From NCBI RefSeq assembly GCF_052425735.1, contig NC_135763.1, positions 17,374,298 to 17,438,297 of the forward strand: a DNA stretch of 64,000 nt, written 5' to 3'. The notes beneath the pieces are model-generated. The model was given only the letters and a program-made list of their open reading frames with translations. It had not been told where the DNA came from and did not search any database. Both the position numbers and the translations under genes were made by a program. Source of the DNA: Oculina patagonica (taxonomy: Eukaryota). Positions 3,561 to 61,159 of the stretch are shown here, one piece after another (position 1 is the stretch's first letter; the number at the start of each line of letters is the position of its first letter).

Positions 3561-3762
3561 TTCCTTACTTTCAAAGATTTCAATTTCTTGTTTAAAAACC
3601 AGTTTCAATTTTTTGGAATCTTACTTTTTTTTGGTGGAGAGTGCTATCGTGAATGTAAATTGTCTGCAGAACACGAAAAGTGGAGGTTATGATGCCTGTG
3701 ATCTCACAATCTCATGACCACAAAGGCTCACAAAGCTACCACAAAGTTAAGAGCGAGCTTAC

Positions 3763-4133
3763 CTTTATTTTCTTTTGATACCCTCCTTGCCATAAACCAG
3801 GAATATTGTACGTGTACACTGTTTCAGACTCCTCACTCAGAATAGAGTCTTTTGCTCGAAAAACAAACATTGCCTGCTCCATGGAGAGCTGATGAAGGTC
3901 ATAAAATAAAACATATTTTTGCATGTTTTTTTGTTTAAATATTGGTGACTGGTACTTTGTCCAACGTTTTAGCAGATTGTACTCATGAGGGATGTTAACC
4001 TCTGGGTGAGCGTCCAATATGGCGGCCACTAAGCTGTGACTACTGCGAGGATATCCAATAAACATCACAAATGTCTCCACTTCATCGTACACTTTAAAGA
4101 GTTTCTCCGCAGGAGAAAGGAGAGGCGTTTCTT
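3763..4133 (-). CDS. Sulfotransferase-like gene A, exon 2 (EETPLLSPAEKLFKVYDEVETFVMFIGYPRSSHSLVAAILDAHPEV...). It carries a 5'PSB-like P-loop (GYPRSSHS).
   Basis: A phase-1 acceptor ctttttgcag| matches the exon 1 donor phase. The donor is aag|gtaagc. A paralog at 9002-9384 gives the same acceptor phase. Confidence 0.6.
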
Positions 4134-4426
4134 CTGCAAAAAGAAAACTGTAACTCATCTTTCAAAACACTGAGTATTTTTATCTTACTCTGGTTTAACT
4201 GCAGAATACCCCACCATCCTTTAGCTCTTTCCAAAAACGTGGATACGCAGTGGTTGACATCGTACTTGCCGAGTGGCTACGCGGTGATCTAAATTTTTTT
4301 GGAGCTTTTACTTGAGAAAGGAACAAAATTAGAAAAGATCCAAGGGGTACTTGAAACCCGAGGACGGTCTTAACCTGATCCAACCTGTTCAGCCTGCGGG
4401 AAGAAGTTGACATCTTCTTTACTTAC

Positions 4427-7600: not shown

Positions 7601-8082
7601 GAAAACAAACCGCCCAAGCGAAAAAGGTCTATTCGAAGACCGACCAAAAATATTCGAACTTTGTTTTCCACGATCCGAACTTCCTGACATGAAGAGTTGG
7701 AATCCGGGCAAAAATTCTCAGCTTATCCGTGATACGCTCAATGTATCGCAAAAAAAATCCACAGTCTGTGCGCTTTTTAAGGCTAAATCCGTCGATCTGC
7801 GAACCTATTCGCCCCCCCCCCCCCCTCATGAAATCACATGGACATCGTGAGATGATAACAACATGAATGATTTTGTTCGCAGTATCAAAGAAAATGCCGT
7901 TCCTCGCCATCAATTGTGAATCCTCAATAGTGATATACCCGCTGATAAGGTCCAAAGGCAGTCAATTTTTTGGTAACATTGTATTTTATTGTAAATAATA
8001 AAGATGGTAAATTTTGCTCGGTAATAAATAATGAAGATGAAGTATTCAACATGACACGAGCATGGGACAAAGAAAAATTCTG

Positions 8083-8156
8083 AGTCCCCGACGGGAATCG
8101 AACCCATGGCCTCCCAGATACCGGTTGGGCGCTCTAACCAACTGAGCTACGAGAGA
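8083..8156 (-). tRNA. tRNA-like Pol III unit, left arm of a 345-bp palindrome. It has a D-arm TAGCTCAGTTGGTTAGAGC and a T-arm GGTTCGATTCC. The anticodon loop is CCGGTAT, with GGT at positions 34-36 if read canonically. The acceptor stem is imperfect, so this is possibly a tRNA pseudogene or SINE head.
   Basis: Canonical D and T arms. A 4-bp anticodon stem with an A31·C39 mismatch. It is followed by a T-run (aattttt). Confidence 0.45.
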
Positions 8157-8235
8157 CTCGTTGTGAGCTGGGCCATTAATTTTATCAACCAAGTGTCACT
8201 TATCAACCTAGTACAATGGCCCAGCTCACAACGAG

Positions 8236-8809: not shown

Positions 8810-9001
8810 CTGTCGTTAAGAAAACAATCAAACAAACAAGTTGCCATCAATTTAAGTAACGCCGTCATAGAATGGTGGAATACTAATCGCTCTGACAATT
8901 TCAATCCTACTTGTTCGGAAATTCTTAATACGAAGAGTGAACATTAACAGTACTCGTCATTTCCATTTTGTGATCTCACACTACAATGCCAGTACAAAAG
9001 A

Positions 9002-9384
9002 CGACCTTACCTTTATTTTCTTTAGATATCCCCCTTGCCACAAACCAGGAATATTGTACGTGTACACTGTTTCAGACTTACTAGTCCGGAGAGAGTTATT
9101 TGCTCGAATGTCAAACATGGCCTGTTCAAAGGAGAGTTGATGAAGGTCATAAAATAGAACGAATTTTTGTAGGTTTTTCTGTTTTAGTTCTGGTGACTGG
9201 TACTTTGCCCAATTTGCAAGCACATTGTACTCATGAGGGATGATAATCCCTGGGTGAGCGTCCAATATGGCGCCCACCAAGCTATGACTGCTGTGAGGAT
9301 ATCCAATGAACATCACAAATGTCTCCACTTCATCGTACACTTTGAAGAGTCTTTCTGCAGGAGAAAGGAAAGGCGTTTCATCAT
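9002..9384 (-). pseudogene. Sulfotransferase-like paralog B, exon 2 (DETPFLSPAERLFKVYDEVETFVMFIGYPHSSHSLVGAILDAHPG...). It is intact in frame.
   Basis: It is about 75% aa identical to gene A exon 2. It has the same phase-1 acceptor (ttcttttgcag|) and a donor aag|gtaagg. The track's M is a TTG. Confidence 0.55.
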
Positions 9385-9444
9385 CTGCAAAAGAATCAAT
9401 CAACGCAGTTGAGTTATTTTCATAGGCCGTTTCTTAACTTCTTC

Positions 9445-17260: not shown

Positions 17261-19204
17261 TGTGTACATTGTCTCTTGCCTTGCGAGCTTTATTTGCTGT
17301 TTGTAATTTCCTTACTTTTCTTAAGCCACGGGCGGGCAACCTCGTCCCTAGGCCTAATCCGTGCGTACGGGCGTACGTACGTACGTAGGCGACTCCCAAA
17401 ATTTCTCGGTTCGATATGATACCATTTGCCTGCCTATGGATGCTCCGCTCGCGCGCCTTCGGCGCGTGGGAGCTCCGCTATAATACAAACAGATGAAGAG
17501 GTTTAAAGCAACACAGATATAGCAAATGTATGCATGCCATTGAGCTGTTACACATTATACACAATACGTAGACATGTGCTTCTTCATTAAATTGAAGAAA
17601 CGAGAAATATTAGGAGGGTATTAAATTTCGCGAATTTTTTTTTCGCGCCGCTTTAAGTTCGAAATTAAAGCGGCGCGAAAATAAGTACCAATAAGGTAGC
17701 TCCTGGACAACAGGGTATCGAACATTCGACTAATACGCAATAAGCACTTTCTTTTTTGTGCAGTCCTGACCAACATACGTATCACATGTAGGTGAAATGT
17801 TAGTTTTAAAATGCCTTCTGAGCAGCGAAAAATGTCAATTGTTACACTAGCCCATCTTATTAACACTGTTGGGCGACAAGCATCTTAACGTCTATGCAAT
17901 TTAAGGTGCCAGTCAAACGAGCGGCTTTAATATAAATAAACTGAGACGTTTTCGTGTGAGAATCGAAGCGCCCAGTAAGCTAAGAGTTGGTTTATTTCCA
18001 ACCGTGAGTTTACTACGCGTGCAATAAACACTTCCGTTCACTGTTATTGCTTTCTGCTTCCGACGTAACGAATTCATTACAATAATTTCTTACACTGAGT
18101 TTGTCGCCAAAACTAAATTGAAATTTCCTGCAGGTTCACATTTCTGAACGAATTATGCATCAATTTTTAATGTTTCGATGCAACTGGATATTCTTAAATT
18201 AGTCAAAAGAAAGCGAAACTTAGTGTATTGTCCGTTACTGAAACCACTGATAATTATATTTATTCTTCTTCCCTTGTTTAATTTAAAAGATATTATTATC
18301 GTTATGCAAACAAACCTGGAAGTTTGCAACTTTAATTCAAAATAAAATAAACAAAATTAGTAATTGCTAAGCGTAATTCGGTAACTTTCCAAAACACAGA
18401 CCAATCTTCGCCCTTCCAAATTAAATGAATTAGGCTTTTGAAAAGTAGCCAAAACTAAACTTTAAACATGACATGTATATAACATAAAAATATTGCAAAG
18501 GCAATAAGCTTCTCTTTTCTTTGAAAAAAAATCGCAAAAGCGTTATCTCTTGCTAATAGCGAAAATTTTTTGACATCGAGAGCAAAATATAAGGACTTGT
18601 TTTACCGACTATCGGTTTATATTGAGTATTTATTTAAACCCACCAGGTGTTACACAGCCGAATCAATAGAGTGTAATTAACAATGTTTCACGCAAAAAAG
18701 CTCAATACAGCAAACGTGACAAGCTATTCGCTGATGCTGACTGGACCATAAATTATTTCGCCTTTAACGATCAGCAGCTGCAATTCGTTGTGCTTTAATC
18801 ACCCTGGGAGCTTTAGCAATCCGGATACGAAGGAATATTTAGTCATTTCACTGCCAGGTAAACGAGTGTTTTGTCAGGTAGAAACGTTCGGTCTACAACC
18901 CCAAACACAGCATTTGCGTTGGCAATTTGCTTTTAAGATAGCGATTGCAATTGTTGCCTCTAAAGCAAGTACTTGTTTACGAAACGACAAAGTCATTCTG
19001 AACACAGAGTTGTGGCATTTTCGAACTTTTGGCAAATGAAGAACTGAATTTTTGGTTTGTCTTCTTGAGGTGTGTTTTGCCAACGGAACATATAAACTTG
19101 GCAAAATGTTAATAAGGCCAACCCAAACCTTACCTTGTACAAATAGTGTTGTTACACTACTCATCTCTTTTATTAATGTAGCAGAAAACCGAGAGCTAGT
19201 CAAC

Positions 19205-19410
19205 ATGGCACAATATCTGCTGTTTTGGCTGTTGTTATCGTTATCTAGCGTGGATTCCAGCGTCGACACAAACTTCCACAGTTACGCATCGTGCACAAGC
19301 AATTGCCACTGTTCACGGAACGAAAAAGGAAAGGTTTTGGTGAAATGCAAGTTCGTCGGAGGAAATGAGACTGAAAAGGCGCTTCACCTACCGCCTGATG
19401 TGTACAGTTT
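19205..19410 (+). CDS. LGR-like GPCR, coding exon 1. It encodes a signal peptide (MAQYLLFWLLLSLSSVDSS) and a cysteine-rich LRR N-terminal cap (CTSNCHCS...KVLVKC) and ends at a phase-2 GTAAGT donor.
   Basis: The ATG at 19205 is followed by a hydrophobic signal-like peptide. The LRRNT cysteine pattern is present. A perfect donor tt|gtaagt sits at 19411. The frame continues into the downstream LRR exons. Confidence 0.7.
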
Positions 19411-20786
19411 GTAAGTACAGTAGAATTTATCGAACCCCTCGTTCCTTGATACTCAGGCCTTATTTCTCGATATCAATTTTCGTTTCCCTTGAATAGTACT
19501 TCTTTTTAATTTTACCCCCGAATTCTCGGGCTTTCCAATTTCTTGAAGCAATTTTCGTTTCTCCTGGTGGTTCGAGAAATCGTGATTCTACGGTAGATCT
19601 CAGTTATGCAATAAGTCAAAAGTATCATTAATACAATTTAGCAAAAACTGGGGCGTATACAGTAGTGGCTGTCTTCTTCTAGAGGATGCACAGTTTGGAA
19701 AAAGGGATTTTTCTTAAACGTTAGTTAGCACGCAAAAGCGCACAGCGATGCTCAATAGTAAGAGTACATTATATATGTATGGTTATGATGAACACCTGTG
19801 AAGGGGTATTATTTGATCGTGTGAACCGACCAGAATTTTGGAATTAGGCGATGCTTTAGAAGAGAACTGTATTGTCCTAAATGAACCATAACCGAAGAAT
19901 CATATAGCCAATGAAAGCCAATGGCAATTCAGGGCATAGCCGAGGAGTGATAACAAGGGAAAGTTTTAAGGCCAAGGACAAGTTTTTCCTTGTGAAAAGA
20001 CCAAAATCCTGCAATCCATCTAATCGATCGATCTAAAATTTCCACAAAAAACTGACGTGCTTTTTAACGGTTGGTGTGATATCTTAAGATTTTTACCGAC
20101 CTAATTATATGTAGATGTAGATGTAGAACAACAAAGGGAAAGAAACGATTGGCGAAGAAAGGTCCATAGGAGTTATTCCGAATTATATGATATTTATTGC
20201 ATGATTGCGACCGAGATACAAACAGGAAAAATGAGATAAAATTATATTTTGCGAGTATGCGATTAACTCTGTACCTTATGAAGCTAAAATTAGATGCATT
20301 AATGCTTGCCTTAGTGAAGCACCTTAGTAGCACCTCAGAAGATCGAGCAGCACAATAACAAGAAGAAAAAAAAAAGGACTGTGATACGATATCTTTAATG
20401 AAATAGTCTTAAAGAAAAACATATTTTTAAAAATGATCAAACTGACAGTTGGCTCTTTGTTTCTCGGGGAAATATGGAGATAACGTTAGAAATAATGTTA
20501 TGCTGTACCCGAACAAAGACTTCAGTACAACTACAAGTTTCCTTTTTAAATAATTTGATGGACACGATACAGTTTTTAAAAGACTACTTAGTTTGGCCTA
20601 AGACCGAAAAGCCCCAAAACAAGTTGTTCACCCTGAGCTTTTAATAATTTTACAGATTCTACACAGCCAAAACAAACAGTAACTTTTAATTTTGAAGACA
20701 CTCCACCTGCTGAACATGACACCCTACATGTATTTGTTTACTCGTACTAACTATCATGCTGCTTTCTGTTGTTATTATTTTGGCAG

Positions 20787-20858
20787 AGACTTATCCGATA
20801 ACAACTTGTCGCATGTTCCAACGTCCCTTGTCCATAAATATCGAAACATTACAAACTT
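20787..20858 (+). CDS. LGR-like GPCR exon 2, a 72-nt LRR exon (LDLSDNNLSHVPTSLVHKYRNITN).
   Basis: The acceptor is ttattattttggcag| and the donor is tt|gtaagt, both phase 2. The LxxLxLxxNxL consensus is present. Confidence 0.7.
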
Positions 20859-21177
20859 GTAAGTATAATAAAAACTACCATACGTTTTTTGACATTTTTT
20901 TTAAACTTGTAGTAATTTAAATTAGTTACTGATCCCTACGCATTTACACACTGGGCATTTAGTTTGATGTGAAAATAAGGCGAAAATAGTTTGAGGTTCA
21001 TCAAGAACATTTTCCCATAATGTGTTGTTAACTGCATGTCCATCGCTCTGGCACCATTTGGAAACAGAGTGTCAACCTAGAAAAGTCGTTCCTTTGTAAA
21101 ATTAAAGTTTTTAAGAGGAGATTTGTAGAAGAATCCGACAACGTTCGGTAATGCTATGAAAAATTGTTCGCTTATCC

Positions 21178-24100
21178 TTTGCATGAAGGTAGTCCTTATT
21201 AAAACTAAAAACGTTATGTTGTTTCTTTCTTCAAATATTTTTATTTTTCTGAGAAAAACGAAATTTTTTGATTTGACATCTAGACTCGTCTAGACTCGAT
21301 TGAGAGGGTACAAATTGGGTTGAAAATTGACCATTTTCAATCGATTCGTATGTCAAAACCATCACGCGCAGAAAAAAATAAATACAACCGGTCTATTGCA
21401 TAACTCTTCCTTGTCGAAATAAGCATAGTTTCAAGAGTTTTGGTTTAATCTAATTATTTTACGGTAAACAAAACCAGACTATTCTCACGCGAAATGAAAG
21501 TCGGTCGGTCAAAAGAATCGTCATTTTCACTATGTGCCTTATCTCAGAATTCCTTGAGATAAATATATTTCAACTGTAGAAGGATGATACTTTCAAAATA
21601 TTTAAAGTTTTGTCTGGGTAAATGATTAAGCACTTGTCAAAAAATTATTCAAAATCGTACAAAAACGACACAAAATCACGCAAGCTTTCGAATGCGTGAC
21701 CAAAAGTATTACCAACGTATTTGTTCTTTAAATCAATTTAGTCGCAACACTAGCAATACCAAGGCATAAATCATAATAAATATGTTCACCTTTGCTTGAT
21801 TATGATATCCTGTCCCATGCAATACGTTCTTTCCTGTCATTTCTTCAATGGCTTCCCGTTCAGTTCGCATGCCGCTTGTCGAATCCGTCTGCGACTGGTG
21901 AATTTGAAGCAACCACCGATACGAGTTTAACCAAATATGTATCGTCATGATTAACAAGCCCTTTTTGTGTTACTTGATTAAGCCATATTTCAGGTTATAG
22001 CCGGCAAAGCGTTTTCGATAAGCCACTTTGCAGTGCCTGTTGGCACCGTTATTATTCGAAGTGAAGTATAAATTTGCATACTTTCGAGACAAGCGTGACA
22101 GTTTTTTATACTTAGGGGGTGGGGTGAGGAAGGGTCTTAAATTTTTAGATGAATCAAATGTTTGAAAACGTTTGGGGATGAATTGTCACAAACTAATACC
22201 GTATTTTACATGGGGATGTAGAAGAATTTCACAACGTCAAACCTGAACCCACGGCAACAAGGATACCAGTTTTCTGCAATATGACATTTGATATTTCTCT
22301 TCCTACATCTCTATCTCCTTTAGAAGTCTTCCCTTTACTGTGATAAGCAATCTCGTGAGGAACTTTGCATGTACTGGAACTTTTTCGCCATCCAATTCCA
22401 AGCTCGGATCGATGAAAGGGACAGATAGTAAAAGCGCTAACATCCTGTTGCTTGTTAAAGATACCTGGTGTTAATGGCGAACAGGAACTTATTCTCCTTA
22501 GAGCATGCTCTAAGGACATGTAAGGAGAATAAGTTCCTGTTCGCCATTAACACCAGCAAAAGACCAGAGGGACTTATGATTTTCTATATCCTTGTTACAT
22601 GGGCAAAGGGACCTCGGTTATTAATTTACTTTTATCGCGTCGATCATGCGAGCAAGGACTGCCAACTATCGTTTTAAAAGAACAAGAAACTTCCATGAGA
22701 CACCAAGTGCAGCGAGAACATGTGGAGTTTCCAACAGTTCACCAGACAACTGAAGGGAAAAGCACTTTACGGGGACTGTGTTGTGCCGGTTGCTCCACAA
22801 ATGGTTCGTGAGAAAAAAGAAATCATTCAAACATCTATAATCGAGTTTAGTAAATTACATTAGTCTCGTCTCCTAAAAGTAAACAACGTGAATTCTCGCA
22901 CACACAAGTTGAGGTCAATTATTTTACTTTGTTGTTTTGGAGAATAATGAAGTACATAACTGAATTATATGGTTTTTATAGAAGGAGCAACCAGCAATTA
23001 GTAGATTATAGACTACCACCAAACCGGAAACGAGAAGCAAACGACTTTTAGAAAGTCTAACTTTAATAGATTACAACACTCTTTCCTGACAGCGGCTTTT
23101 TGTCAATACTTTTACGGTTTTTCTCTCTTTGATTTTGAGCGTAAGCAGAACTTATAAGTAAAGTAAATCACGTAGCAAATACGAGTTTGTGACAATTCAT
23201 CCCCAAACGTTTTCAAACCATTGCTTCATCTAAAAATTTAAGACCCTTCCTCACCCCACCCCCTAAGTATAAAAAACTGTCACGCTTGTCTCGAAAGTAT
23301 GCAAATTTATACTTCACTTCGAATAATAACGGTGCCAACAGGCACTGCAAAGTGGCTTATCGAAAACGCTTTGCCGGCTATAACCTGAAATATGGCTTAA
23401 TCAAGTAACACAAAAAGGGCTTGTTAATCATGACGATACATATTTGGTTAAACTCGTATCGGTGGTTGCTTCAAATTTACTAGTCGCAGACGGATTCGAC
23501 AAGCGGCATGCGAACTGAACGGGAAGCCATTGAAGAAATGACAGGAAAGAACGTATTGCATGGGACAGGATATCATAATCAAGCAAAGGTGAACATATTT
23601 ATTATGATTTATGCCTTGGTATTGCTAGTGTTGCGACTAAATTGATTTAAATAACAAATACGTTGGTAATACTTTTGGTCACGCATTCGAAAGCTTGCGT
23701 GATTTTGTGTCGTTTTTGTACGATTTTGAATAATTTTTTGACAAGTGCTTAATCATTTACCCAGACAAAACTTTAAATATTTTGAAAGTATCATCCTTCT
23801 ACAGTTGAAATATATTTATCTCAAGGAATTCTGAGATAAGGCACATAGTGAAAATGACGATTCTTTTGACCGACCGACTTTCATTTCGCGTGAGAATAGT
23901 CTGGTTTTGTTTACCGTAAAATAATTAGATTAAACCAAAACTCTTGAAACTATGCTTATTTCGACAAGGAAGAGTTATGCAATAGACCGGTTGTATTTAT
24001 TTTTTTCTGCGCGTGATGGTTTTGACATACGAATCGATTGAAAATGGTCAATTTTCAACCCAATTTGTACCCTCTCAATCGAGTCTAGACGAGTCTAGAT

Positions 24101-24200
24101 GTCAAATCAAAAAATTTCGTTTTTCTCAGAAAAATAAAAATATTTGAAGAAAGAAACAACATAACGTTTTTAGTTTTAATAAGGACTACCTTCATGCAGA
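21178..24200. repeat. Foldback structure. Inverted-repeat arms of about 1.05 kb (21178-22232 and 23162-24200, more than 95% identical) surround a central region of about 930 bp. It lies entirely within LGR intron 2.
   Basis: The arms are reverse complements along their whole length. This is seen directly, for example gcatgaaggtagtccttattaaaactaaaaacg paired with cgtttttagttttaataaggactaccttcatgc. Confidence 0.8.
22455..22555. repeat. Near-perfect palindrome of about 100 bp (tggtgttaatggcgaacaggaacttattctccttagagcatgctctaaggacatgtaaggagaataagttcctgttcgccattaacacca). It sits at the centre of the foldback.
   Basis: A self-complementary sequence with a stem of about 44 bp. Confidence 0.7.
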
Positions 24201-25639
24201 AGATGAGCGAAATCCCTGTATTTTAAGAATTGCCGCAAAAAAACAATTTTTGTTCGATTCTTCTACAAACTTGCTCTTAATTTAACCTGCAGTCCAATAT
24301 CGGGGCCAATTACCCTCGGCGCTCGTCTTAATGTTACGTTGTAGGAAACATATAACATGTTTTTTTCCTTTTAAACACAAGTCTGTCAGAAAGCAAAATT
24401 CGAGATAATAGCAGGACCTGGCAAGTCAATGAGTAGCGTCACTTTTTTTCAAGTAATTATTACTTCTGGCACACAGGGATATCTAAATTTATCAAAACCA
24501 CCGAAAACTTCGATATTCTCGAATATGATTGGTTTTCAACACTCCTAAGTTATTTAACATGAATAATTATTTACTGGCGCTGTAAACGAGACAGTGTTTT
24601 GCAAGAAGAAAAAAAACAATGTGAGAGATTCTCTTTCTAGTGCGTTTTGAAAGCAAACTACGCTGCTGTCGTCTTTTATTAACCAAAACAGTAAGCTTTT
24701 CGTTGTTATTTCCTTTCTCAATTTTTGCTGATTTTGTTACAATAATAATTTTACCAATTTAAATTGGTAGCATGACTTCATGTCGTCCAGTTCATTAAGG
24801 CCCCCGCAAACGAAGGAAAACTAATGCGGAAACGTTATTTCCAAAAAAGTATCCCAGGTTGCACCCACACACAACATTCGTTGCGAAAACAAAATTTGTT
24901 CGCGAGAAGCAAAATGTTTCCTCGTTGATATTTACATGTGGTACAGCAAATGTTTCCCCCATGGCGCCCAGCAATTAACTTCGTTTGTGGGTCCATCACA
25001 GACCGCGAGCTCGACTGAAATCAGTCCGATTACCGTACGGTAGTGAAAATTTAAACTTGTTCACAGCATTCATTTACTTTTTTGTCGTTGATTGGACTTT
25101 TTAATTGTGCAAATAATAATTGCATATCTGACGTTAGATAAATAGAAATTGAAAAAAAAAATAAAAAATGGAGAAACATGGAGAAAACTGGCATAGCGAA
25201 CAATTGATATAACTACTATAGCAAAAAATGTTTCAATCCTCAAGTTAAAGTTTTCACGCGTTGGTTGCCAGAAAAACCTACAATCGCGGCTTCACGCCGT
25301 GCCGCAATGACTTCGCTGCGTGAAATGAACCAAAGTGAACGATAAACAGATTTAAACATTGCTTTAAATGATTTTTAGAACTGTACACTAATATAATCCG
25401 TTATTATTCAGCTATCCGGCTTACTGGTACAACTGTTATCTTTCTCAGTGAAAAAAAAAAAAAATAAAAACCAAATAAAATGCCAGCTGCGAACGTCGAA
25501 ATTATTAATCAAGATAAAATTCACCTCCACTGCCAGGATTGACACATTTTTGCGATTCTGCTATATAATTACGTATGGCGTCTGTAGCAACGTTGGCTTC
25601 CAACAGCGAACCGAAAAATGTCCTATGCGGGTCCTCATG

Positions 25640-26583
25640 ACTAGCTATTCGCTGAAACTGACTGGACCATAAATCATTTTCGCCTTTAACGATCAGCAGC
25701 TGCAATTCGTCGTGCACTAAACACCCTGGGAGCTTTAGCAATTCGGATACGGAGGAATACTTAGTCATTTCACTGCCAGGTAAACGAGTGTTTTGTCAGG
25801 TAGAAACGTTCGGTCTTCAACCCCCAACACTGATTTCCGTTGGCAATTTGCTTTTTAGATAGCGATTGCAATTGTTGCCTCTAAAGCAGGTACTTGTTTT
25901 AGAAACGACACAGAAAAGTCATTTTGAACACCGAGTTGTGGCATTTTCTAACTTTTGGCAAATAATGAACTGAATTTTTGGTTTGTCTCCTTAACGTGTG
26001 TTTTGCCAAAAGAACTGAAAGATAAACTTGGCAAAATGTTAATAAAACCAACGCAAACCTTACGTTGTATAAATATTGTTGTTAACACTACTTATCTCTT
26101 TTATTAAAGGGACCGTGTCACGGATTTTAGACAAACTTAGGCATAGGAAATGACCACCAAATTCGTTTAAATATATAAAATAACATCTTAAAACAGTGAA
26201 GGAATATTTAAATCACACACCAAATGCAAAAGAAGGCACGGAGGCCAAAAGTGACGAAGATTGAAACAGATTGCGATATGGGTTTTTGAAAAGTGATCCG
26301 GCGGAACAGTTTTCAAAGTTAATCTTGTTTGCTTGTAACTTTAAATTACAACGCCGGGAAACATATTTGGTGCAGTGAAGCTATGATTTTGTCATTTAGA
26401 ATCATACAATTATTTTTTTGCAAACATTTAGTTTCATAGCGGGTGTATTTAATAACATAAAATTAACTTAGCCGTGACACAGTCCCTTTAATGTAACAGA
26501 AAACCGAGAACTAGTCAACATGGCACAATATCTGCTGTTTTGGCTGTTGTTATCGTTATCTAGCGTGGATTCCAGCGTCGACA
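25640..26583 (+). pseudogene. Partial duplicate of the LGR 5' flank plus the start of exon 1 (equivalent to 18725-19273, about 90% identical). It is interrupted by a 380-bp MITE and diverges right after ...SSVDT. It is a pseudo first exon inside intron 2.
   Basis: Alignable directly. The motif atggcacaatatctgctgttttggctgttgttatcgttatctagcgtggattccagcgtcgacaca is present at both 19205 and 26520. Confidence 0.7.
26108..26487. mobile_element. TTAA-flanked MITE (about 380 bp, TIR AGGGACCGTGTCACGG...CCGTGACACAGTCCCT) inserted into the duplicated LGR 5' copy. The empty site is visible in the original (ttattaa|tgta at about 19165).
   Basis: TSD TTAA at 26104-07 and 26488-91. The original locus has a single TTAA. 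Confidence 0.7.
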
Positions 26584-27021
26584 CACAAAATTCACAATTT
26601 TTCCAAAATGCCAGAAAATAAATAAAAATGTGCTTTAAATCCGTGAAAATAATTCCATTTAAGTTGATTTTTATTAACAGAGACACGCAAAATTACAAAT
26701 TTGGGAAAACATGCCTGTCAAAATGCCGTTGCCATGGTGATGTCAAGTTCCTGACACATCATCCAACCCTACCAAATTGTTGCCAGATAAATTTGAGGAA
26801 AACTCAGAAAGTTTGGCAGCGTTTGGTTAAATCTTAAAAAGTTATAAAAGTTCAAAGTCAACGCAGGCCTCAAAAGCCCCACCCCCCCGGTCTGAATAGG
26901 GTTAAATGTTATAAATATAGTCACGAACGGAAACAAATTCTTCAATTTCTGTCATCCCAGTTATCGTTGCTACTATTAAGAAAGAATTTTGTTTTTCATG
27001 TATTTTTCTTTTTTCTACCAG

Positions 27022-27096
27022 AATTTTGGATGGAAATGAATTACACAATCTGACATCCGAAGGACTGTTGGCTGATTTATCCTTCCTACAATATCT
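27022..27096 (+). CDS. LGR-like GPCR exon 3, a 75-nt LRR exon (LILDGNELHNLTSEGLLADLSFLQY).
   Basis: The acceptor is ttttttctaccag| and the donor is ct|gtaagt, both phase 2. An LRR motif is present. Confidence 0.7.
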
Positions 27097-27420
27097 GTAA
27101 GTGTTTAGATTGCAATAATTGTGTATAATGTTGCCACCTCTCTACGTCTCTTTTTTAAAGTACATCTCGCGCTTTGCAAAACACATAATTGTTGGAAAAT
27201 TGACAAAAACCTTCATCTTTGAGACTGTTCATGCACACTTTAAAGTTTGCTTCGAAAAGCAGTGAGAATATAAAATGCTCAATAAACGCAATGATGTGTC
27301 ATTCAGATTGCCCGTGCTCAGAAATTCCACCCAGCTATCCACTTAAAAAGATTTCGGGAAAGATAAAAAAGATGGACACATATAGGTGAACTTCATACTC
27401 AAGATAAATTTTACTATTAA

Positions 27421-29451
27421 AGTGCCTATGAAGTAAAAAACTTTTTTGCTTTTTTTGGTAGCTTATTATTGTACTTTCCGAAAAGCTAAAAAAAGAATAA
27501 TGTCAAAAGAGAGAAATCGGACTTTTTGCCGTCTAAAGTGCCCTCGGTAAGACAAAACAGTGGGTCCGGAGACTGGACACGATGGCCGAAGACGTAGTTA
27601 GTGGTTCCACGGATCAGTTTACACTTAATTTTATTGATACACAGTGAAGTTCACTACTTCAGCGAGATTGTTACTGCTTTTCGTTGATAAATCGAAATCT
27701 TGTCCGAAAAGAACGATATGTTGCCATCTCGGACTTGGCTGAGTGAGTTTCTAGCAGAAAAGAACGAAACGATCGTACACTAAATGGACTGAAGTAGTTA
27801 GTTGGACCTGTCCAACCGCCGCAAGCCGAATAAGCGCTCTTTCACACAAGCGCTGGTTGACGAGGATGATCGAATTTGGCAAAGCAGATAAAGAGAAATT
27901 CTATAAAAAATGAATAACTAGAATTTTATTTTTCCAAAAGCACATACATCGACGGGCTTTGATTTTGTGACTGGTTTCGCAGTGTCGCAATGGGCTTCGG
28001 AATTGACACGAGCGCTGCTTGCCGCGCCGGGGTTGCTTGCTTGTCGAATGTGTAAATTCAGGTTACGGTACGCCTATCCCGGTGGTTATTCGGTATTATA
28101 TCACGATTTAGTGATTTTAATACAAGTAGCGATCAGTTGCTCGCTTTCATTTTGATTGTGTTCTTGTGTGGGAAAGTACAGTGGACTGACATATTTCTCC
28201 GAAGCATGAGAGTGACATAATTAAACTTGACAACACGGCAAGATAACACTTCTTCAAACTCAAGGTTAGCACTTTTTGACTTGATCGAAACCAAAAATTT
28301 CCTCTTCAAGAATAAACAGAACTGCAGTTGTTGCTCTTTATGGTTCGTTAGCTCTACGGTATATTTTCAACCGTCTTTATTTGGATACGATAAATCCTGA
28401 TTACAGTGCGTGTTTATCGGCAAATATAAATTCCGGTGAAGGCAGCCGTAAAATTTGTCCTAGATTTTGCAAGATCTCAGTGTATTGTTTAAAAGTTCAT
28501 TCGCCATAGAATACCGGAAATGCAGACGTGAATGACAAAATTCGAAGCGCGCTACTTGAAAACAAACAAGCATTTCTAACTCACTCAAGTCGAATTTTAT
28601 ACATTCCATACTTTTGCTTCTTTCACAGATGCATTCGTTTGCGTCTGGCGATCGATCGTTTCAAGTGTTTGGGAAAGGAAACGACTGCTACCTTATGAAT
28701 GATAAAACGATCTACTAACCATACAAATTACATTTTGAGGAACGAAGTCTCATAATAAAAGAATAACACGTATACTGTACCCAGCTGTGTAACATATAGA
28801 CTTTCAATAAAGTCCTTCGTCTTGTTTATTATGGCGCGCCGGGAAACTCCGGGCGCGACTGCTAAATCTTTCTTTCGGCTAGTCAGGGCAGAATGAGAAA
28901 GAGACCGCCATATCCTTTACAGAGGTAACTCTTTTAATAAATTTCCTCCTCGCTTCATGACTTGATCGTTTCATTTGTGGCAAGGAAGAGCTTGTGCTGA
29001 GAACATCGATCCTTGAACTGCCGACGGAACAGAATTCGTTTCTTCTTGCGTTTTCATCAGAAGTGAACGAATAGCTTTACGATACACATGGAAATCTGCT
29101 TCCATTTACTCTGCTAAGCTTCACCAAAGGAAATAAGTGTATTTGTTGCAGTTTCGTTTGCGCAATTGCCTTAGTTTGACTCAAAAGCCGAAATATAGCT
29201 TTCGCCAGCCCTCTTTGCTCTCTTTACGCCATAATCCTGGTGTCTTTAGAACCACTAAGTACGTCATTTCCGGTGAAACCGGAGCGTTTGGCCGCGCGCG
29301 AGAAGGACCCACTTCAAATTGCGAAATCCAAACTTCGAGGCTAAAAAAATACTAGAAAAAAGCGCTTTTGATCTCTTAAACACGCATATTCGTGCTAACT
29401 AAGACATAAACAAGCAAATTGAGCAAAATTATTTTTTACTTCATAGGCACT
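27421..29451. mobile_element. Non-autonomous DNA transposon of about 2 kb (TIR AGTGCCTATGAAGTAAAAAA) flanked by TTAA. It occupies most of LGR intron 3.
   Basis: The inverted termini are at 27421-27445 and 29427-29451, with TTAA on both sides. Only short ORFs lie inside. Confidence 0.5.
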
Positions 29452-29551
29452 TTAAGGTTATGTATTTGAATCAAATTACAAAATATCAAGCATTCATTTC
29501 AAATTACGTAATTTTGACCGCTATTAACATCACGGTTGCCTTACTTTTTAG

Positions 29552-29623
29552 TTCTGTACAAAGAAACTCCATCAGAGATGTGGACAGCAAATTCTTTGGA
29601 GGACTTTATCGGCTAAAATACTT
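29552..29623 (+). CDS. LGR-like GPCR exon 4, a 72-nt LRR exon (LSVQRNSIRDVDSKFFGGLYRLKY).
   Basis: The acceptor is ccttactttttag| and the donor is tt|gtaagt, both phase 2. An LRR motif is present. Confidence 0.7.
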
Positions 29624-30206
29624 GTAAGTATCAGGAAAACGTTTAAAAATTGTAGAAAAAGACATAACAATTGTAACGACAGATGAAAGATAATTTTAAC
29701 TTTTAAACGGAACACGAAATACAAACTGTCATTCTGTTCTGTACAAATTTCGACTTTCGTTTGTCATGTCGTCATCTTATTACTATTCAGCACCTGCAGT
29801 CACTCTACTGCTACCCAGACCACCTTTCGGTCTTGACGCGTGCACTTTTGTGCTTTTTCCGACAACCTTTCTCGAATTAGCTATAGCTGTATACGGGAGA
29901 GGCTCCTGACTGTCTTCTGGGCCCTTTGCCTTAATACAGCGCTTTCCGATGGCTCTCAACGCAGCGAGTTGTTGTTTACTGAGTTTGTTTGTTTGCCGAG
30001 TTACAAAACTGCATGGCCAGACGTCTCGTCCAACATTCTGCACCAGAACAAAGATGTTTTCGTTTTAGTGCTTTATTTATTAGTGCTTAAAAAAATTGCA
30101 AGAGCCTTCCATTGTTTACTCGTTTTTTGTTGGAGCTGTTTTGTTAAACATTTTTAGATGAAACAAATGCAATCCCTCATGAGTATTGTTATTCTTTCCT
30201 CCACAG

Positions 30207-31728
30207 AAATCTTAGCCTCAACAATGTTAAGGCATGGACTGGGAACCAGTCACAAAGTACCGAACGTCTTGAATACTTGGACATCACTGGAACAATCGAC
30301 TGGGTCCCGGATGAAAACATCCTTGTCCTTCCAAACCTCAAAGAACTCAGGGGGGTCACTTGGTGTAAATTTTGTCCCAACTGTACAGTGATCAACCCAC
30401 GAAATATTGTCAATGAGTCACAGAGAAAACAGAAGGCAGAGGAATGCCTTCGAGAGTTTAATGACATGAAGTTTCTGGAATTTGGGAAGGAGGATCCCAA
30501 AAGATTTATAAGACACCGATACTTGCCCGAATGCATGTGCGTAAAGCAATCGGAATGTGAGTTCCGCCATGTCGTGATGCCATACTTTATAAAGCATACC
30601 TCATTGCCACAGACGTTGTTTTACTTAGAGTATGCTCTAAGTCCTTTTACTATCCTTCTAAACATTGTCGTAATTGTAACAATTCTGACATCTCGCTCTT
30701 TGCGCAAGGTACCTTCATTTATCCTAATAGGTCACACGGGACTTACCGACCTCCTGACCGGTATTTACGCAATATGGGTGGCCCATGTTAACATCTCTAA
30801 CATTGATAGTGTTTTAGAAGAGGTTATGTGGGCAGGGAAAGAGCTGCAACCCTCAACTGGTCCAATCTTCATCTCTGGCCAACTGATCTCGGTTTCAATT
30901 TCATTGCTTCTTACACTTGAAAGATATCTTGCTGTTGTTTACTGTGTGAAGCCGTCCAAACGCATGACAGCGAAAAGTGCTCAAATCTCTTTGCTTTTTG
31001 CTTGGGCCATGGCTATCGCTTTTGCTGTCATGCCCGTATTTGGTGTCGGCGGTCTACATTACAACATCAAACGAGCTTGCGCTCCTTTGAGTTACGATGA
31101 GCAGTTCAAGTCAGGGTCCTCGCTGATTCTTCTGTTCTCTCTTGTTTTCATTGTGTTGCTGTATCTTGTAAATCTTCCTTTGTACTTCCAGCTTTTTAGG
31201 TTTGTTAAAAGAAGCAGTAACCAGGCTGGTGTCAAGCGAGAGATGTCTCTTGCCAGAAAAATCGCTTTTTTGGTTCTCACTAATTTCATTTTCTTTGCTA
31301 TACCCATAATCCTCATTCTTGTGTTCTCCATCTTTGCCAATCTTGACAGCAACCCGTTTGACTTTGAAGGCGATGCTTTCAAAAGCACCGTTTTCAAGAT
31401 TTCTATTGGCCAATGGCTCCCAGTCACGTGTCTGAATATCAACTCCCTATTGGACCCGTTTCTTTACGCGTTTAAACACACGCACTTTAGGCGGGAAATC
31501 AGGTGCAGATTCCATCGTCTTTCTAGAAAGGTCTTTCCATCTTTGGTTCCTTCATTGATGTTTAATTCCGTTGATGATTTTTCAGCGTCCAGTGCCCCAC
31601 GAACAAGAAAAATGTCAAGAATCGACGAGCAGTCGACCGGAAGTAAAGCCAAAAATAAAATTGTTCCTGTTGCCAACGAAGAATTGGAATTCCAAGAAAC
31701 ACATAAACAAGTCTCTAAATCAATGTAA
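30207..31728 (+). CDS. LGR-like GPCR terminal exon. It encodes 2 LRRs, an LRRCT (CKFCPNC), a cysteine-rich hinge, the 7TM rhodopsin-class domain (ERY at the TM3 end, DPFLY = NPxxY in TM7) and a C-tail of about 80 aa. The stop TAA is at 31726.
   Basis: The acceptor is ttattctttcctccacag|. A 483-aa ORF (30277-31728) runs in the same frame. Seven hydrophobic helices are visible, and E/DRY and NPxxY-type motifs are present. Confidence 0.8.
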
Positions 31729-31789
31729 GAGGACAACCTGCGACTCTGTTGAAAATCGTTGTTGGAGCTCGAGGTAAAATAATGCCAAC

Positions 31790-31866
31790 AAACCCTCCCA
31801 AATAATCCCCCCTCCCCCCCACAAAAAAAAGGACCCCCCCCCCAAAAAAACAACAACAACAACAAC

Positions 31867-31900
<34 letters not shown>

Positions 31901-31910
31901 AGAGCGCTTC
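31790..31910. repeat. Compound low-complexity microsatellite (poly-C/poly-A, then (CAA)7 and (CA)15) just downstream of the LGR stop codon.
   Basis: Read directly. Confidence 0.8.
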
Positions 31911-34039
31911 AGGTTTTTCCACTTTTCTTCTTTCACTAAAAGCGTATTTGGGACTTTCCACTATACACTAAAGACGGCACTTCTTGATTGCCTAAAACTT
32001 CAGAGAAGTAAAATAAGAGTGAAGATGTAGTGAAAAAAGTGCTAGAATGTGTAAACTGAAAATATAGCCTTAACTATAATCTCCACTACATGTAAATGAT
32101 TAAGTACAAACATAAAGTTGTAAATACATGTATTTGCAAATACTCGAAGGGGGCGTTTTGGCGTTTTAATACCTCTGAGACCACTTTACGTGTGGTCACC
32201 ACATTTCAGGAAAAGTTGACATTCTAGTAATAAAATTACTTATGAATCTAAGAATTTTTGAAGTCTGCGACTGCGGCATAATTTAAAGTGACTTGCTACT
32301 AATTAGTTTTGACACTATAAAAATCCTTAGCAATGTACTTTCAGATGTAAATGACGACAATTAAATTAAGTGCATTACAGTGCTTTTATCTGTATCATGT
32401 ACATGTGCGGCATCAGTTGTAAATAGCTGAGTAATGGCAATGAGTTTGAAAGTATTATTTGTGGTATCTTGGTTCGTTTTCACATGAAACGAGTATGGTG
32501 GTCCATTGTATGTAAAATTGTACATAAAAATATATAATCCCACAATTATAACTGATTAAAACTTAAAGAACCTCGTGTTTGTTGAGCTAACCAGTTTCAA
32601 TTAAAACTATTATGTTAATTATAGCTAGTCAAACGCCCACAAACTTTAAAAAATGTTATTTCTGACGATTGAGTGACTTTGATGAATTAATGAGACAGAA
32701 ATTAGTGTTCTGACGGCACAATTGAGAGGCTGGCGGGTTGTCATGGGATGCTAGATCAAGATGACTGACTGACTGACTAGTAGAATGACTGACTGACACA
32801 TCCTGAATATAAACACTTCACATTGAATGTCTTGTGTAGGTGTAGTTAGAATCTTTCACGGGCCAAGCTATCTCTCTTAACCTTAACGTAAGGGACCATG
32901 AGAAAAAAAATGAATCACTAGAAGATCGCGAGTTATTTAGCAAATAATGCATCGAGGAAGTGTAAACCAGTAAGGGCTGATTCGCACTAGCGGACAAGTT
33001 TGTAATGTCCTGACATTTGTGACCAAAAAAATTGTCGCGACAAGTTGTCAGAGACATCTTGAAGAAAAAAAAGGTGGAATTATTAGTACAATAGCTTCTA
33101 GTATCCTTGTATATTTCTCAGTGCGGCCGTCTTGAGCAAACATCAAATATGAAGGACCACGTGGTAAAAAATTCCAAATACAATTCGCATTTAAAGTGCG
33201 CGTGTTCTCATGCAGTGGAAAAATGAGTCGCATCAAGAAAACGTTTCCTTTTCCCACCCTTACGTTGGGAGAAACACTTCATTTAAAAACATGCTTTGCC
33301 TATCACGAAAATATTTCACGGCTGTAATATGATAGTAACATCACGGTGCATACTGCCGTGCTGGATTCACAATGCGAATTTAGAAGCCTTTATATTACCG
33401 CGCTGGCACGAGATCAATAGGGGTGGTACATTTAAGAAAAATACTACAAGAAATAAAGATTTTTTTGACAATTCAGCTTCCCTTGATGAAAAATTACCGA
33501 GATTGGCTTAGCCTTTCTCTAACGTAAACAGAAGATTAGATTTAGCTGTTATGTCAATCACTTTACTTCTTTCTATCTTGTTCTCAGTTGCGAAGCAAAG
33601 CTAAGGTTGTAGCTTTCGTTGTACTTTGATGAACAGGTTAACTTTGCTGTAACCTTGGTTCACTGCAAAAACTTCTCGCATAAATTGTAATAAGAACAAC
33701 TGGCTCGAAGATCAGTGAACGAGTAGTGATCAAGAGATATCCCCGAATAACATTTTATACACAATATATATTTATTAACTCTTTGTTAATAAAAAAATAA
33801 ATAGTTTATTAAATAGACATAATGACATTGCAAAATATTCACGTAATGCATAGAAAAAGTGTCCTAGAGAGCACTTAATTATTTACGATTACGACATTTT
33901 TGAAAGTGGTTTCAATTTTCTTGGAGTAGTGTCTGGTAAGTTACTGTGGGCTTTCGCCTCGTTTTCCGGTGGTGTTTTGGCGCTGTTAATTACAATGTAC
34001 AGCTGTGGGCAACACTCCAGGAACGAAGGAATAGTGCAA

Positions 34040-61085: not shown

Positions 61086-61125
61086 GGCTTCAATAGCTCA
61101 GTTGGTAGAGCATCGCACCGGTATC

Positions 61126-61159
<34 letters not shown>
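61086..61159 (+). tRNA. tRNA-like gene with a perfect 7-bp acceptor stem (GGCTTCA/TGAAGCC). It has a D-arm TAGCTCAGTTGGTAGAGC, a T-arm ACGGGTTCGAATCCCGT, an anticodon loop CCGGTAT (Thr-GGU-like if canonical) and one extra nt before position 8. A T7 Pol III terminator follows immediately.
   Basis: The cloverleaf is readable by eye. The run ctgaattttttt follows directly downstream. The anticodon loop and the A31·C39 mismatch match the 8-kb units. Confidence 0.5.

What the first reader, a model, noticed from the sequence alone, without database searches (positions are those of the whole stretch)
19205..31728. LRR-containing GPCR (LGR-type) with compact 5-exon structure
An LRRNT exon, three 72-75 nt phase-2 LRR exons and a single large exon carrying two LRRs, the LRRCT and the 7TM domain form the architecture of the glycoprotein-hormone and relaxin receptor family (LGR). 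This one has only about 6 LRRs, far fewer than vertebrate GPHRs. The TM3 motif is ERY and TM7 has DPFLY. The cysteine-rich hinge (CKFCPNC...ECMCVKQSECEF) could correspond to the LGR hinge region. This is a candidate peptide or hormone receptor of unknown ligand class.
Basis: partly seen in the sequence, partly recalled or inferred. Interest (0 to 1): 0.6.

Follow-up and report, generated by a model that had tools for sequence, protein, structure and literature searches.

The report
Coral short-ectodomain LGR-type orphan receptor
This is a real, intact five-exon stony-coral gene for a cell-surface receptor related to the glycoprotein-hormone receptors; it belongs to an already described but still ligand-less cnidarian side branch of that family, so it is a sound gene call, not a surprise.

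Summary
On the + strand, five exons (19205-19410, 20787-20858, 27022-27096, 29552-29623, 30207-31728) join through GTAAGT donors and phase-2 introns into a 648-aa protein. It has a signal peptide, a 4-Cys LRRNT cap, about 6 LRRs, a 7-Cys hinge and a rhodopsin-class 7TM domain with ERY and DPFLY.

Pfam finds 7tm_1 (3e-23) and LRR_8. The best solved-structure matches, by sequence and by fold, are TSHR, FSHR, LHCGR, LGR4 and RXFP1. The NCBI-annotated Montipora ortholog has the same exon plan (224/72/75/72/1423 nt, all phase 2).

The gene is not type A, B or C. Its closest relatives are the non-canonical, few-LRR LGRs of Nematostella (Nvec-LGR13, 12, 6, 7, 9 and 10; Koch & Grimmelikhuijzen 2022), at E 1e-59 to 1e-35. 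Canonical type-A LGRs score about 1e-15. The ligand is unknown.

One feature is specific to the coral orthologs. The usual TM3 cysteine (3.25) is lost, the ECL2 cysteine is kept, and a new hinge cysteine (C195) appears. This suggests a rewired hinge-ECL2 disulfide, which I could not test.

Verdict: interpretation supported; new member of a known kind; modest interest.

The parts
19205..19410 (+). Exon 1 (206 nt): ATG, signal peptide (MAQYLLFWLLLSLSSVDS), LRRNT cap (C30, C34, C36, C48), first half of LRR1. It ends 2 nt into a codon.
19411..20786 (+). Intron 1 (1376 nt, phase 2, GTAAGT...CAG)
20787..20858 (+). Exon 2 (72 nt): LRR1 (LDLSDNNLSHVPTSLVHKYRNITN)
20859..27021 (+). Intron 2 (6163 nt, phase 2). 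It is inflated by a 1028-nt inverted repeat and by a partial copy of the gene's own 5' end. The Montipora counterpart is 669 nt.
27022..27096 (+). Exon 3 (75 nt): LRR2 (LILDGNELHNLTSEGLLADLSFLQY)
27097..29551 (+). Intron 3 (2455 nt, phase 2)
29552..29623 (+). Exon 4 (72 nt): LRR3 (LSVQRNSIRDVDSKFFGGLYRLKY)
29624..30206 (+). Intron 4 (583 nt, phase 2)
30207..30357 (+). Exon 5, first part: LRR4, LRR5 and the capping LRR6 (residues 142-192)
30358..30600 (+). Exon 5: cysteine-rich hinge, residues 193-273 (C195, C198, C201, C222, C251, C253, C259). Modelled as a compact helical module with pLDDT above 90.
30601..31533 (+). Exon 5: 7TM domain and helix 8, residues 274-584. Key residues: N294 (1.50), D323 (2.50), Q356 at 3.25, ERY 380-382, W408 (4.50), ECL2 C433, LTN 499-501, P508 (6.50), N554, DPFLY 558-562.
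31534..31728 (+). Exon 5: poorly conserved Ser/Thr-rich cytoplasmic tail (residues 585-648) and the TAA stop (31726-31728)

Best explanation
This is an intact scleractinian-coral gene under purifying selection. [quoted passage not shown] It belongs to the non-canonical, few-LRR cnidarian clade (the group of Nematostella Nvec-LGR5-13), not to type A (glycoprotein hormone), type B (LGR4-6/bursicon) or type C (relaxin).

Inferred mechanism:
- The signal peptide directs the N-terminus outside the cell.
- A short horseshoe of about 6 LRRs, capped by a 4-Cys LRRNT, binds a still unknown extracellular protein or peptide ligand.
- A compact, disulfide-locked helical hinge sits directly on the 7TM bundle and passes ligand binding on to it, as in glycoprotein-hormone receptors.
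- The 7TM domain keeps the class-A activation residues (D2.50, ERY, P6.50, N7.45, D/NPxxY, helix 8), so it should signal through heterotrimeric G proteins.

Shown: gene structure, domain architecture, family placement, conservation.

Inferred: ligand binding by the LRRs, G-protein coupling, and a possible C195-C433 (hinge-ECL2) disulfide replacing the canonical TM3-ECL2 bridge in the coral orthologs.
For: Gene model:
- Consensus splice sites and an in-frame 1947-nt CDS.
- The annotated Montipora capricornis ortholog has the identical exon plan, 224/72/75/72/1423 nt, all phase 2.
- Collinear alignment to the Montipora and Acropora proteins at 61-65% identity, with no junction gaps.

Selection:
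- pN 0.23 against pS 0.70 compared with Montipora, giving dN/dS of about 0.13. The tail is relaxed at 0.65.

Domains and fold:
- 7tm_1 at 3e-23 and LRR_8 at 4e-13.
- PDB sequence hits are FSHR, LGR4, LHCGR, RXFP1 and TSHR.
- The family profile scores TSHR 180, FSHR 164, LHCGR 158, RXFP1 125 and LGR4 104 bits, against about 100 for rhodopsin or CB2. The alignment runs through the hinge cysteine boxes.
- AF2 model with pLDDT 83 and pTM 0.76. Best folds are TSHR, FSHR, LGR4, LHCGR and C. elegans LGR.

Family placement:
- phmmer against 1.84e9 representatives gives 72 clusters at E<=1e-30. Nearly all of the best 150 are few-LRR relatives; the seven type-A LGRs recognised among them lie in the last 17 rows, at 8e-17 to 4e-14.
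- Hit clusters contain A7RYQ4, A7RYQ5, A7RJD5, A7T202, A7RW36 and A7RQR1. These are Nvec-LGR13, 12, 6, 7, 9 and 10.
- PMC9545775 describes these as neither A, B nor C, with fewer LRRs and their own hinge.
- NJ bootstrap: type A against the rest 300/300; coral orthogroup 300/300.
Against: - No transcript evidence for the splice junctions in this species. The only exact-match public contig is genomic.
- Types B and C were excluded by architecture, profile scores and the published tree. I did not build my own tree containing B or C sequences.
- The one-to-one Nematostella ortholog is unresolved: bootstrap 13% for the LGR13/12 grouping and 49% for the Actinia group.
- Ligand, G-protein coupling and disulfide map are untested.
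- AF2 confidence is low for residues 100-120 (LRR2/3), where few full-length homologs cover the alignment.
Confidence: 0.88

Rival explanations
1. It is a true ortholog of the type-A glycoprotein-hormone receptors (FSH/LH/TSH/thyrostimulin receptor), as the NCBI names of its Acropora and Montipora orthologs ('follicle-stimulating hormone receptor-like') suggest. Its ligand would then be a GPA2/GPB5-like cystine-knot hormone.
For: At the profile level, type-A receptors are the best solved-structure matches, and the alignment extends into the hinge cysteine boxes. The best fold hits are TSHR and FSHR. The gene has one LRR per phase-2 exon and an intronless hinge+7TM exon; from my own knowledge of the FSHR, LHCGR and TSHR genes, type-A genes are built the same way.
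Against: - It has about 6 LRRs.
- It lacks the type-A signatures seen in the type-A representatives: the C-x-P-x-P-x-A-F-N/Q-P-C-E motif before TM1, ERW, FTDF and NPFLY. Here these are VMPYF, ERY, LTNF and DPFLY.
- Type-A sequences score about 1e-15, against 1e-35 to 1e-59 for the non-canonical Nvec-LGRs.
- Type A separates from this clade in 300/300 bootstraps.
- Nematostella has separate type-A genes, Nvec-LGR1 and 2.
Confidence: 0.04
2. It is an LRR-GPCR that arose by independent fusion of an LRR module to a rhodopsin-class receptor, and so is convergent with LGRs and not homologous to them.
For: With the single sequence, the margin of LGRs over other class-A GPCRs is modest: FSHR 60 bits against CCR1 37. 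The hinge sequence is unlike any canonical type.
Against: The family profile separates GPHRs (157-180 bits) clearly from generic class-A receptors (about 100 bits). It also aligns LRR-cap, hinge Cys boxes and TM collinearly with TSHR. Whole-length fold matches are all LGRs. The gene shares the phase-2 one-LRR-per-exon layout and the intronless hinge+7TM exon. The published tree groups the Nematostella relatives with the LGRs.
Confidence: 0.05
3. It is a decaying or non-functional gene copy. The partial duplication of its own 5' end and the large inverted repeat in intron 2 hint at a rearranged locus.
For: Intron 2 holds a truncated second copy of the upstream region, ATG and signal-peptide codons, plus a 99% identical 1-kb inverted repeat.
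Against: - The reading frame is open across all five exons and every splice site is consensus.
- All family-invariant residues are kept.
- There is strong purifying selection against Montipora.
- Orthologs at 56-92% identity exist in many coral assemblies.
- The rearrangements lie wholly inside the intron.
Confidence: 0.03

Closest known systems
Non-canonical ('N. vectensis-specific') LGRs, Nvec-LGR5 to 13 (Koch & Grimmelikhuijzen 2022, PMC9545775)
   Same: Both have few LRRs, their own cysteine-rich hinge and an LGR-like 7TM domain, and both are orphans. Six of the nine (LGR13, 12, 6, 7, 9, 10) are among the best database hits. The hinge cysteines C198, C201, C222, C251 and C259, the TN motif in TM6 and N7.45 are shared across the family.
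   Different: The coral orthogroup is only 26-34% identical to them over hinge+7TM, and no one-to-one Nematostella ortholog is resolved. Alone in the 79-sequence alignment, the coral orthogroup (14 of 14) has the combination C195, no C3.25 and retained C433; all 14 also carry D7.49 (16 of 79 overall, against N in 63). It also shows that the group is not Nematostella-specific.
Type-A LGRs: glycoprotein-hormone receptors (FSHR, LHCGR, TSHR; Anthopleura and Nematostella LGR1/2)
   Same: Same order of modules: LRRNT, LRRs, a hinge with two cysteine boxes, then the 7TM domain. These are the best profile and fold matches. The hinge+7TM is a single exon and the LRR exons are phase 2 (GPHR gene structure from my own knowledge).
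   Different: It has about 6 LRRs rather than the 9 drawn for human FSHR in PMC9545775 (that review gives 'about 7-9' for types A and C). It has no FNPCEDIMGY-type segment before TM1. It has ERY, LTN and DPFLY in place of ERW, FTD and NPFLY. It forms a separate clade.
Type-B (LGR4-6, bursicon receptor) and type-C (RXFP1/2, Lgr3) LGRs
   Same: LRR ectodomain joined to a rhodopsin-class 7TM domain; significant sequence and fold similarity.
   Different: Type B has 14-18 LRRs (PMC9545775). Type C has an N-terminal LDLa module, and some type-C (RXFP/LGR3-type) genes have phase-1 introns inside TM2 and TM5 (PMC11863921). None of these is present here. Profile scores are lower than for type A.

Membership tests
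LGR superfamily (LRR-containing rhodopsin-class GPCRs) | Extracellular N-terminus with a signal peptide, a cysteine-capped LRR array and a cysteine-rich hinge before TM1 | tested here: met
   Spliced protein; LRR_8 at 4e-13; N-cap aligns to the LGR5 and IGFALS LRRNT; 7-Cys hinge modelled with pLDDT above 90
LGR superfamily (LRR-containing rhodopsin-class GPCRs) | 7TM domain closer to known LGRs than to other class-A GPCRs | tested here: met
   phmmer: FSHR 1e-15 and LGR4 2e-15 against CCR1 1e-8. Profile: GPHRs 157-180 bits, RXFP1 125, LGR4 104, others up to 101. Foldseek top hits are all LGRs.
LGR superfamily (LRR-containing rhodopsin-class GPCRs) | Activation by a secreted protein or peptide ligand bound to the LRR domain, with G-protein signalling | not testable with these tools
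   Needs expression and ligand assays. The activation residues D2.50, ERY, P6.50 and Y7.53 are present.
Non-canonical cnidarian LGRs (Nvec-LGR5-13 group) | Fewer LRRs than types A, B and C, and a hinge of its own kind | tested here: met
   About 6 LRRs. Hinge cysteines C198, C201, C222, C251 and C259 are at least 90% conserved across 79 family members, including five clusters linked to Nvec-LGR6, 7, 10, 12 and 13.
Non-canonical cnidarian LGRs (Nvec-LGR5-13 group) | Closest homologs and tree neighbours are members of that group, not canonical LGRs | tested here: met
   Clusters holding Nvec-LGR13, 6, 12, 10, 9 and 7 score E 8e-59 to 4e-35; type A scores about 1e-15. NJ split from type A is 300/300. 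My tree contained no type B or C sequences.
Type-A LGR (glycoprotein-hormone receptors) | Type-A hinge ending in C-x-P-x-P-x-A-F-N/Q-P-C-E-(D/N)-(I/V/L)-M-G before TM1, plus the ERW, FTD and NPFLY motifs | tested here: not met
   These motifs are present in type-A representatives P0165, P0166, P0171, P0173, P0175 and P0177 and in TSHR (P0180 has FNPCSD); they are absent here, replaced by ECEFRHVVMPYF, ERY, LTN and DPFLY.
Type-A LGR (glycoprotein-hormone receptors) | Phylogenetic position inside type A | tested here: not met
   Type A forms its own clade in 300/300 bootstraps.
Type-B LGR (LGR4-6 / bursicon receptor) | 14-18 LRRs and a type-B hinge | tested here: not met
   About 6 LRRs. LGR4 has the lowest profile score of the LGR types.
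Type-C LGR (relaxin / Lgr3 receptors) | N-terminal LDLa module; introns within TM2 and TM5 in some RXFP/LGR3-type genes | tested here: not met
   No LDLa hit at E<=1. The 7TM domain is encoded without introns. The type-C introns are described in PMC11863921.

The most novel reading that the evidence does not exclude
In the coral orthologs of this receptor, the near-universal class-A disulfide between TM3 (Cys3.25) and ECL2 has been replaced by a disulfide between a newly acquired hinge cysteine and the retained ECL2 cysteine. The new cysteine is C195, directly after the last LRR strand; the retained one is C433. The ligand-binding ectodomain would then be tied covalently to the transmembrane bundle. 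That would be a new structural variant of LGR ectodomain-to-7TM coupling. It may go together with the subfamily-specific D7.49 (DPFLY).

The basis is cysteine bookkeeping:
- All 14 coral-orthogroup sequences have C195, no C3.25 and C433.
- None of the 65 other family members has C195.
- 56 of those others have both C3.25 and C433, and 8 lost both together.
- The nearest outgroup has the same six other hinge cysteines plus the canonical pair.

All of this traces to one evolutionary event.
Probability: 0.4. Interest if true: 0.5.

Novelty: new member of a known kind. Interest (0 to 1): 0.3.

Why it matters
The gene gives a clean, ortholog-verified model for a coral member of the orphan few-LRR LGR group. 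That group was described in 2022 as 'Nematostella-specific'. This result shows it is conserved, with identical exon structure and under purifying selection, across stony corals and sea anemones. It is also misleadingly auto-named 'FSH receptor-like'. These receptors are candidates for unknown cnidarian protein or peptide hormone systems, possibly relevant to coral reproduction or development, and none has a known ligand. The apparent disulfide partner swap gives a concrete, testable structural hypothesis. None of this overturns current understanding.

Tried and rejected
- A second paralog or extra exons in the window. tblastn of the protein finds only the five exons, plus the 8-codon match in the partial 5' copy.
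- The 5' copy in intron 2 (ATG at 26520) as an alternative first exon. It runs into a stop after 33 codons and has only non-consensus phase-2 GT sites. I judged it a dead duplicate.
- Transcript evidence. The only 100% identical public contig (Logan SRR27962760) is collinear genomic DNA that includes intron 4. No paper mentions that run, so the species was not identified.
- Locus look-up for the Acropora protein P0013. It is not on record, so I used Montipora P0012 instead. My first exon-boundary script missed one acceptor by one base; this was fixed.
- A neat reciprocal D6.44/N7.49 to N6.44/D7.49 swap relative to GPHRs. Rejected: Asn in TM6 is family-wide, whereas D7.49 is in only 16 of 79 (all 14 coral orthologs plus two others), and the spacing to P6.50 differs by one residue.
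- Biopython BLOSUM bootstrap timed out. A Kimura-distance run produced NaNs. The final Poisson-distance run is.
- The AFDB Foldseek library was not available.
- The Genome Research DLGR-2 paper is not held, so the statement on GPHR intron phases rests on my own knowledge.
- Model coordinates are not exposed, so Cys-Cys distances could not be measured.
Full report
**1. Observation**

The window is AT-rich eukaryotic DNA, about 38% GC. The stated features are on the + strand.
- ATG at 19205 opens a typical signal peptide. It is followed by a C-x3-C-x-C-x11-C cap and the beginning of an LRR. The exon ends at 19410 before GTAAGT.
- I scanned the whole interval 19412-30206 for open AG...GT exons in the phase-2/phase-2 frame that carry an LRR motif. 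The scan found 20787-20858 (72 nt), 27022-27096 (75 nt) and 29552-29623 (72 nt). It also found one poor 63-nt candidate (21006-21068) without pyrimidine tract or consensus donor; including it would insert 21 residues that neither ortholog has.
- The last exon starts at 30207 after a pyrimidine tract and CAG, and runs to the TAA at 31726-31728.
- Joined, the five exons give a 1947-nt in-frame CDS of 648 aa. All four donors are GTAAGT and all four introns are phase 2.
- tblastn of the protein back onto the window finds only these five exons.

**2. Independent support for the model**

- A protein search gave 30 strong homologs. Most are single-exon fragments from coral assemblies at 55-100% identity. 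Two are full-length NCBI proteins: 'follicle-stimulating hormone receptor-like' of Montipora capricornis (P0012, 621 aa) and of Acropora muricata (P0013, 648 aa).
- Both full-length proteins align end to end with no gap at any of the four junctions.
- I fetched the Montipora locus and reconstructed its exons so that they translate exactly to P0012. The exons are 224/72/75/72/1423 nt, all phase 2, with GTAAGT donors and the same junction positions. The exon plan is therefore conserved between coral families.
- Against Montipora, pN is 0.23 and pS is 0.70. Synonymous sites are saturated and dN/dS is about 0.13. The value is 0.12 in the 7TM domain and 0.65 in the tail. This indicates purifying selection.
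- No transcript evidence was available. The one identical public contig is genomic.

**3. What the protein is**

- Pfam finds 7tm_1 (3e-23, residues 294-562) and LRR_8 (4e-13). There is no LDLa or other module.
- Against PDB sequences, the 7TM domain hits FSHR (1e-15), LGR4 (2e-15), LHCGR, RXFP1 and TSHR ahead of any other GPCR; CCR1 is at 1e-8. The N-terminus aligns with the LRRNT and first LRRs of LGR4, LGR5 and IGFALS.
- A 79-sequence family alignment (A2) used as a profile scores TSHR 180, FSHR 164, LHCGR 158, RXFP1 125 and LGR4 104 bits. Rhodopsin, CB2 and others score up to 101 bits.
- The TSHR alignment runs collinearly from the last LRRs into TM1-7 and helix 8. It passes through the two hinge cysteine boxes: the family C-x-x-C against TSHR C283/C284, and the distal cysteines against the second TSHR cysteine cluster ending at the FNPCED cysteine (residue numbers from my own knowledge of TSHR).
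- An AlphaFold2 model built on A2 has mean pLDDT 83 and pTM 0.76. It shows LRR strands, a high-confidence helical hinge (residues 193-273), seven helices and helix 8. Confidence is low only at the signal peptide, residues 100-120 and the tail.
- Foldseek against the PDB ranks TSHR, FSHR, LGR4, LHCGR and the C. elegans LGR first, over the whole length.

**4. Which LGR**

- An exhaustive phmmer search of the exon-5 protein against 1.84 billion representatives found 857 relatives, 72 of them at E<=1e-30. Many hits cover the last LRRs, the hinge and the 7TM domain together.
- Canonical type-A LGRs appear only near the bottom of the 150 listed hits, at 8e-17 to 4e-14. They are recognisable by AFNPCED/AFQPCEN-type hinge ends before TM1 (P0180 has FNPCSD), ERW (ERY in P0165 and P0166), FTDF (LTNF in four of them) and NPFLY.
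- Cluster look-ups tie the better hits to UniProt entries A7RYQ4, A7RJD5, A7RQR1, A7T202, A7RYQ5 and A7RW36.
- Supplementary Table 2 of Koch & Grimmelikhuijzen 2022 names these Nvec-LGR13, 6, 10, 7, 12 and 9.
- That review states that nine of the thirteen Nematostella LGRs are neither type A, B nor C. They have fewer LRRs and different hinges, and their ligand class cannot be predicted. It calls them N. vectensis-specific.
- In my neighbour-joining analysis I used 400 columns of the last LRRs (from residue 150), hinge and 7TM, and 42 taxa. Type A splits from this group in 300/300 bootstraps, and the coral orthogroup is recovered in 300/300.
- Deeper relations are unresolved: 49% for a sister group containing an Actinia tenebrosa protein, and 13% for the Nvec-LGR13/12 group.
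- Types B and C are excluded by three lines of evidence. The gene has about 6 LRRs and no LDLa, and no intron interrupts the 7TM domain; some RXFP/LGR3-type genes have phase-1 introns in TM2 and TM5 (PMC11863921). Profile scores for B and C are lower. The published tree places the Nematostella relatives outside B and C.
- I did not build a tree containing B or C sequences.

**5. Mechanism (inferred)**

- The architecture and the conserved class-A residues argue for a signalling-competent GPCR. These residues are N1.50, D2.50 (78/79), E/DRY, W4.50, P6.50 (79/79), N7.45, P7.50 and Y7.53, together with helix 8.
- I infer that the short LRR horseshoe binds an extracellular protein or peptide, and that the rigid hinge couples this to the helix bundle, as in glycoprotein-hormone receptors.
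- One feature is specific to the coral orthologs. Position 3.25 (Q356, counted from R3.50 = R381) is not cysteine. ECL2 C433 is retained, and a cysteine is present at 195, right after the last LRR strand.
- In the 79-sequence alignment, all 14 orthogroup members show C195, no C3.25 and C433. None of the other 65 has C195. Of those others, 56 have both C3.25 and C433, and 8 have lost both together.
- The nearest outgroup sequences (P0027, P0036) have the same six other hinge cysteines plus the canonical pair. C195 and C433 are therefore the two unpaired extracellular cysteines.
- This suggests a hinge-ECL2 disulfide replacing the TM3-ECL2 bridge. The pattern is a single evolutionary event, and I could not measure the distance in the model, so it remains a hypothesis.
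- All 14 orthogroup members also carry D7.49 (DPFLY); in the whole alignment it is D in 16 of 79 sequences against N in 63.

**6. Comparison and novelty**

- The gene works like an LGR and is a member of the LGR superfamily. It fails the defining tests for types A, B and C, and fits the published non-canonical cnidarian group.
- Orthologs are already in NCBI under automatic 'FSH receptor-like' names.
- What is added here: a verified gene model in another coral; evidence that the group is conserved in Scleractinia and Actiniaria and so is not Nematostella-specific; the conserved exon plan; and the cysteine-swap observation.
- I rate it a new member of a known kind, of modest interest.

**7. Surroundings**

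- Intron 2 is 6163 nt, against 669 nt in Montipora. It contains a 1028-nt inverted repeat at 99% identity with a 989-nt spacer.
- It also holds a partial direct copy of the gene's own upstream region, ATG and 22 signal-peptide codons.
- Other items seen in passing are listed separately.

Noticed in passing
window 18717-19270 versus 25638-26107 and 26488-26585: The gene's upstream region and the first 66 nt of its CDS (ATG plus 22 signal-peptide codons) are duplicated in direct orientation inside intron 2. Identity is 90-98%, with about 380 nt inserted between the two parts. The copy's ORF stops after 33 codons and has no consensus donor, so it is probably a dead partial duplicate, though it could act as an internal promoter.
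   Followed up: partly
window 21167-22194 and 23184-24211: A 1028-nt inverted repeat with 99.1% identical arms separated by 989 nt lies inside intron 2. There is no other copy in the window and no Pfam hit for the central ORF. It may be a foldback-type element or a recent inverted duplication. With the duplicate above, it explains why intron 2 is 6.2 kb here against 0.67 kb in Montipora.
   Followed up: partly
window 8082-8157(-)/8235-8310(+) and 61086-61159(+)/61338-61410(+): Four tRNA-like sequences are all called tRNA-Thr with anticodon GGT, which from my own knowledge is unusual for eukaryotic nuclear tRNA-Thr genes. One pair is inverted and one is direct. Rfam tRNA scores are 35-50 bits. 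They may be tRNA-derived repeats rather than working genes.
   Followed up: no
window 3736-4158(-) and 8981-9403(-): Two paralogous 140-aa ORFs of similar sequence lie about 5 kb apart on the minus strand. One gives a weak Sulfotransfer_3 match (E 4e-4, below the Pfam cutoff). They look like exons of tandemly duplicated sulfotransferase-like genes.
   Followed up: partly
window about 31750-31950: Simple repeats, inferred from the minus-strand ORF translations (CVCVCV..., LLLL, GGG runs): a (TG)n microsatellite and homopolymer G/C runs start within about 30 nt of the stop codon. The matching public contig L001 stops aligning at window 31827 (L001 position 1970 of 2055).
   Followed up: no
protein P0048 (GenBank UQI50297.1): One member of this few-LRR family is deposited as 'follicle-stimulating hormone Receptor [Haliclona caerulea]', a sponge record. 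In the NJ tree it sits among sea-anemone sequences. It is either a genuine sponge member, which would widen the family beyond Cnidaria, or cnidarian contamination of the sponge data.
   Followed up: no
protein P0029 (Actinia tenebrosa LOC116298871, 995 aa): This NCBI model contains two consecutive LRR-hinge-TM units, the first truncated after TM4. It looks like a fused prediction of two tandem family members, which suggests tandem arrays of these receptors in sea anemones. The adjacent Nematostella loci LOC5515295 and LOC5515296 (Nvec-LGR13 and 12) point the same way.
   Followed up: no
window 19106: An in-frame ATG lies 33 codons upstream of the proposed start, in a weaker context (T at +4). 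The orthologs start at the signal peptide, so 19205 is preferred. The true start depends on the unknown transcription start site.
   Followed up: no
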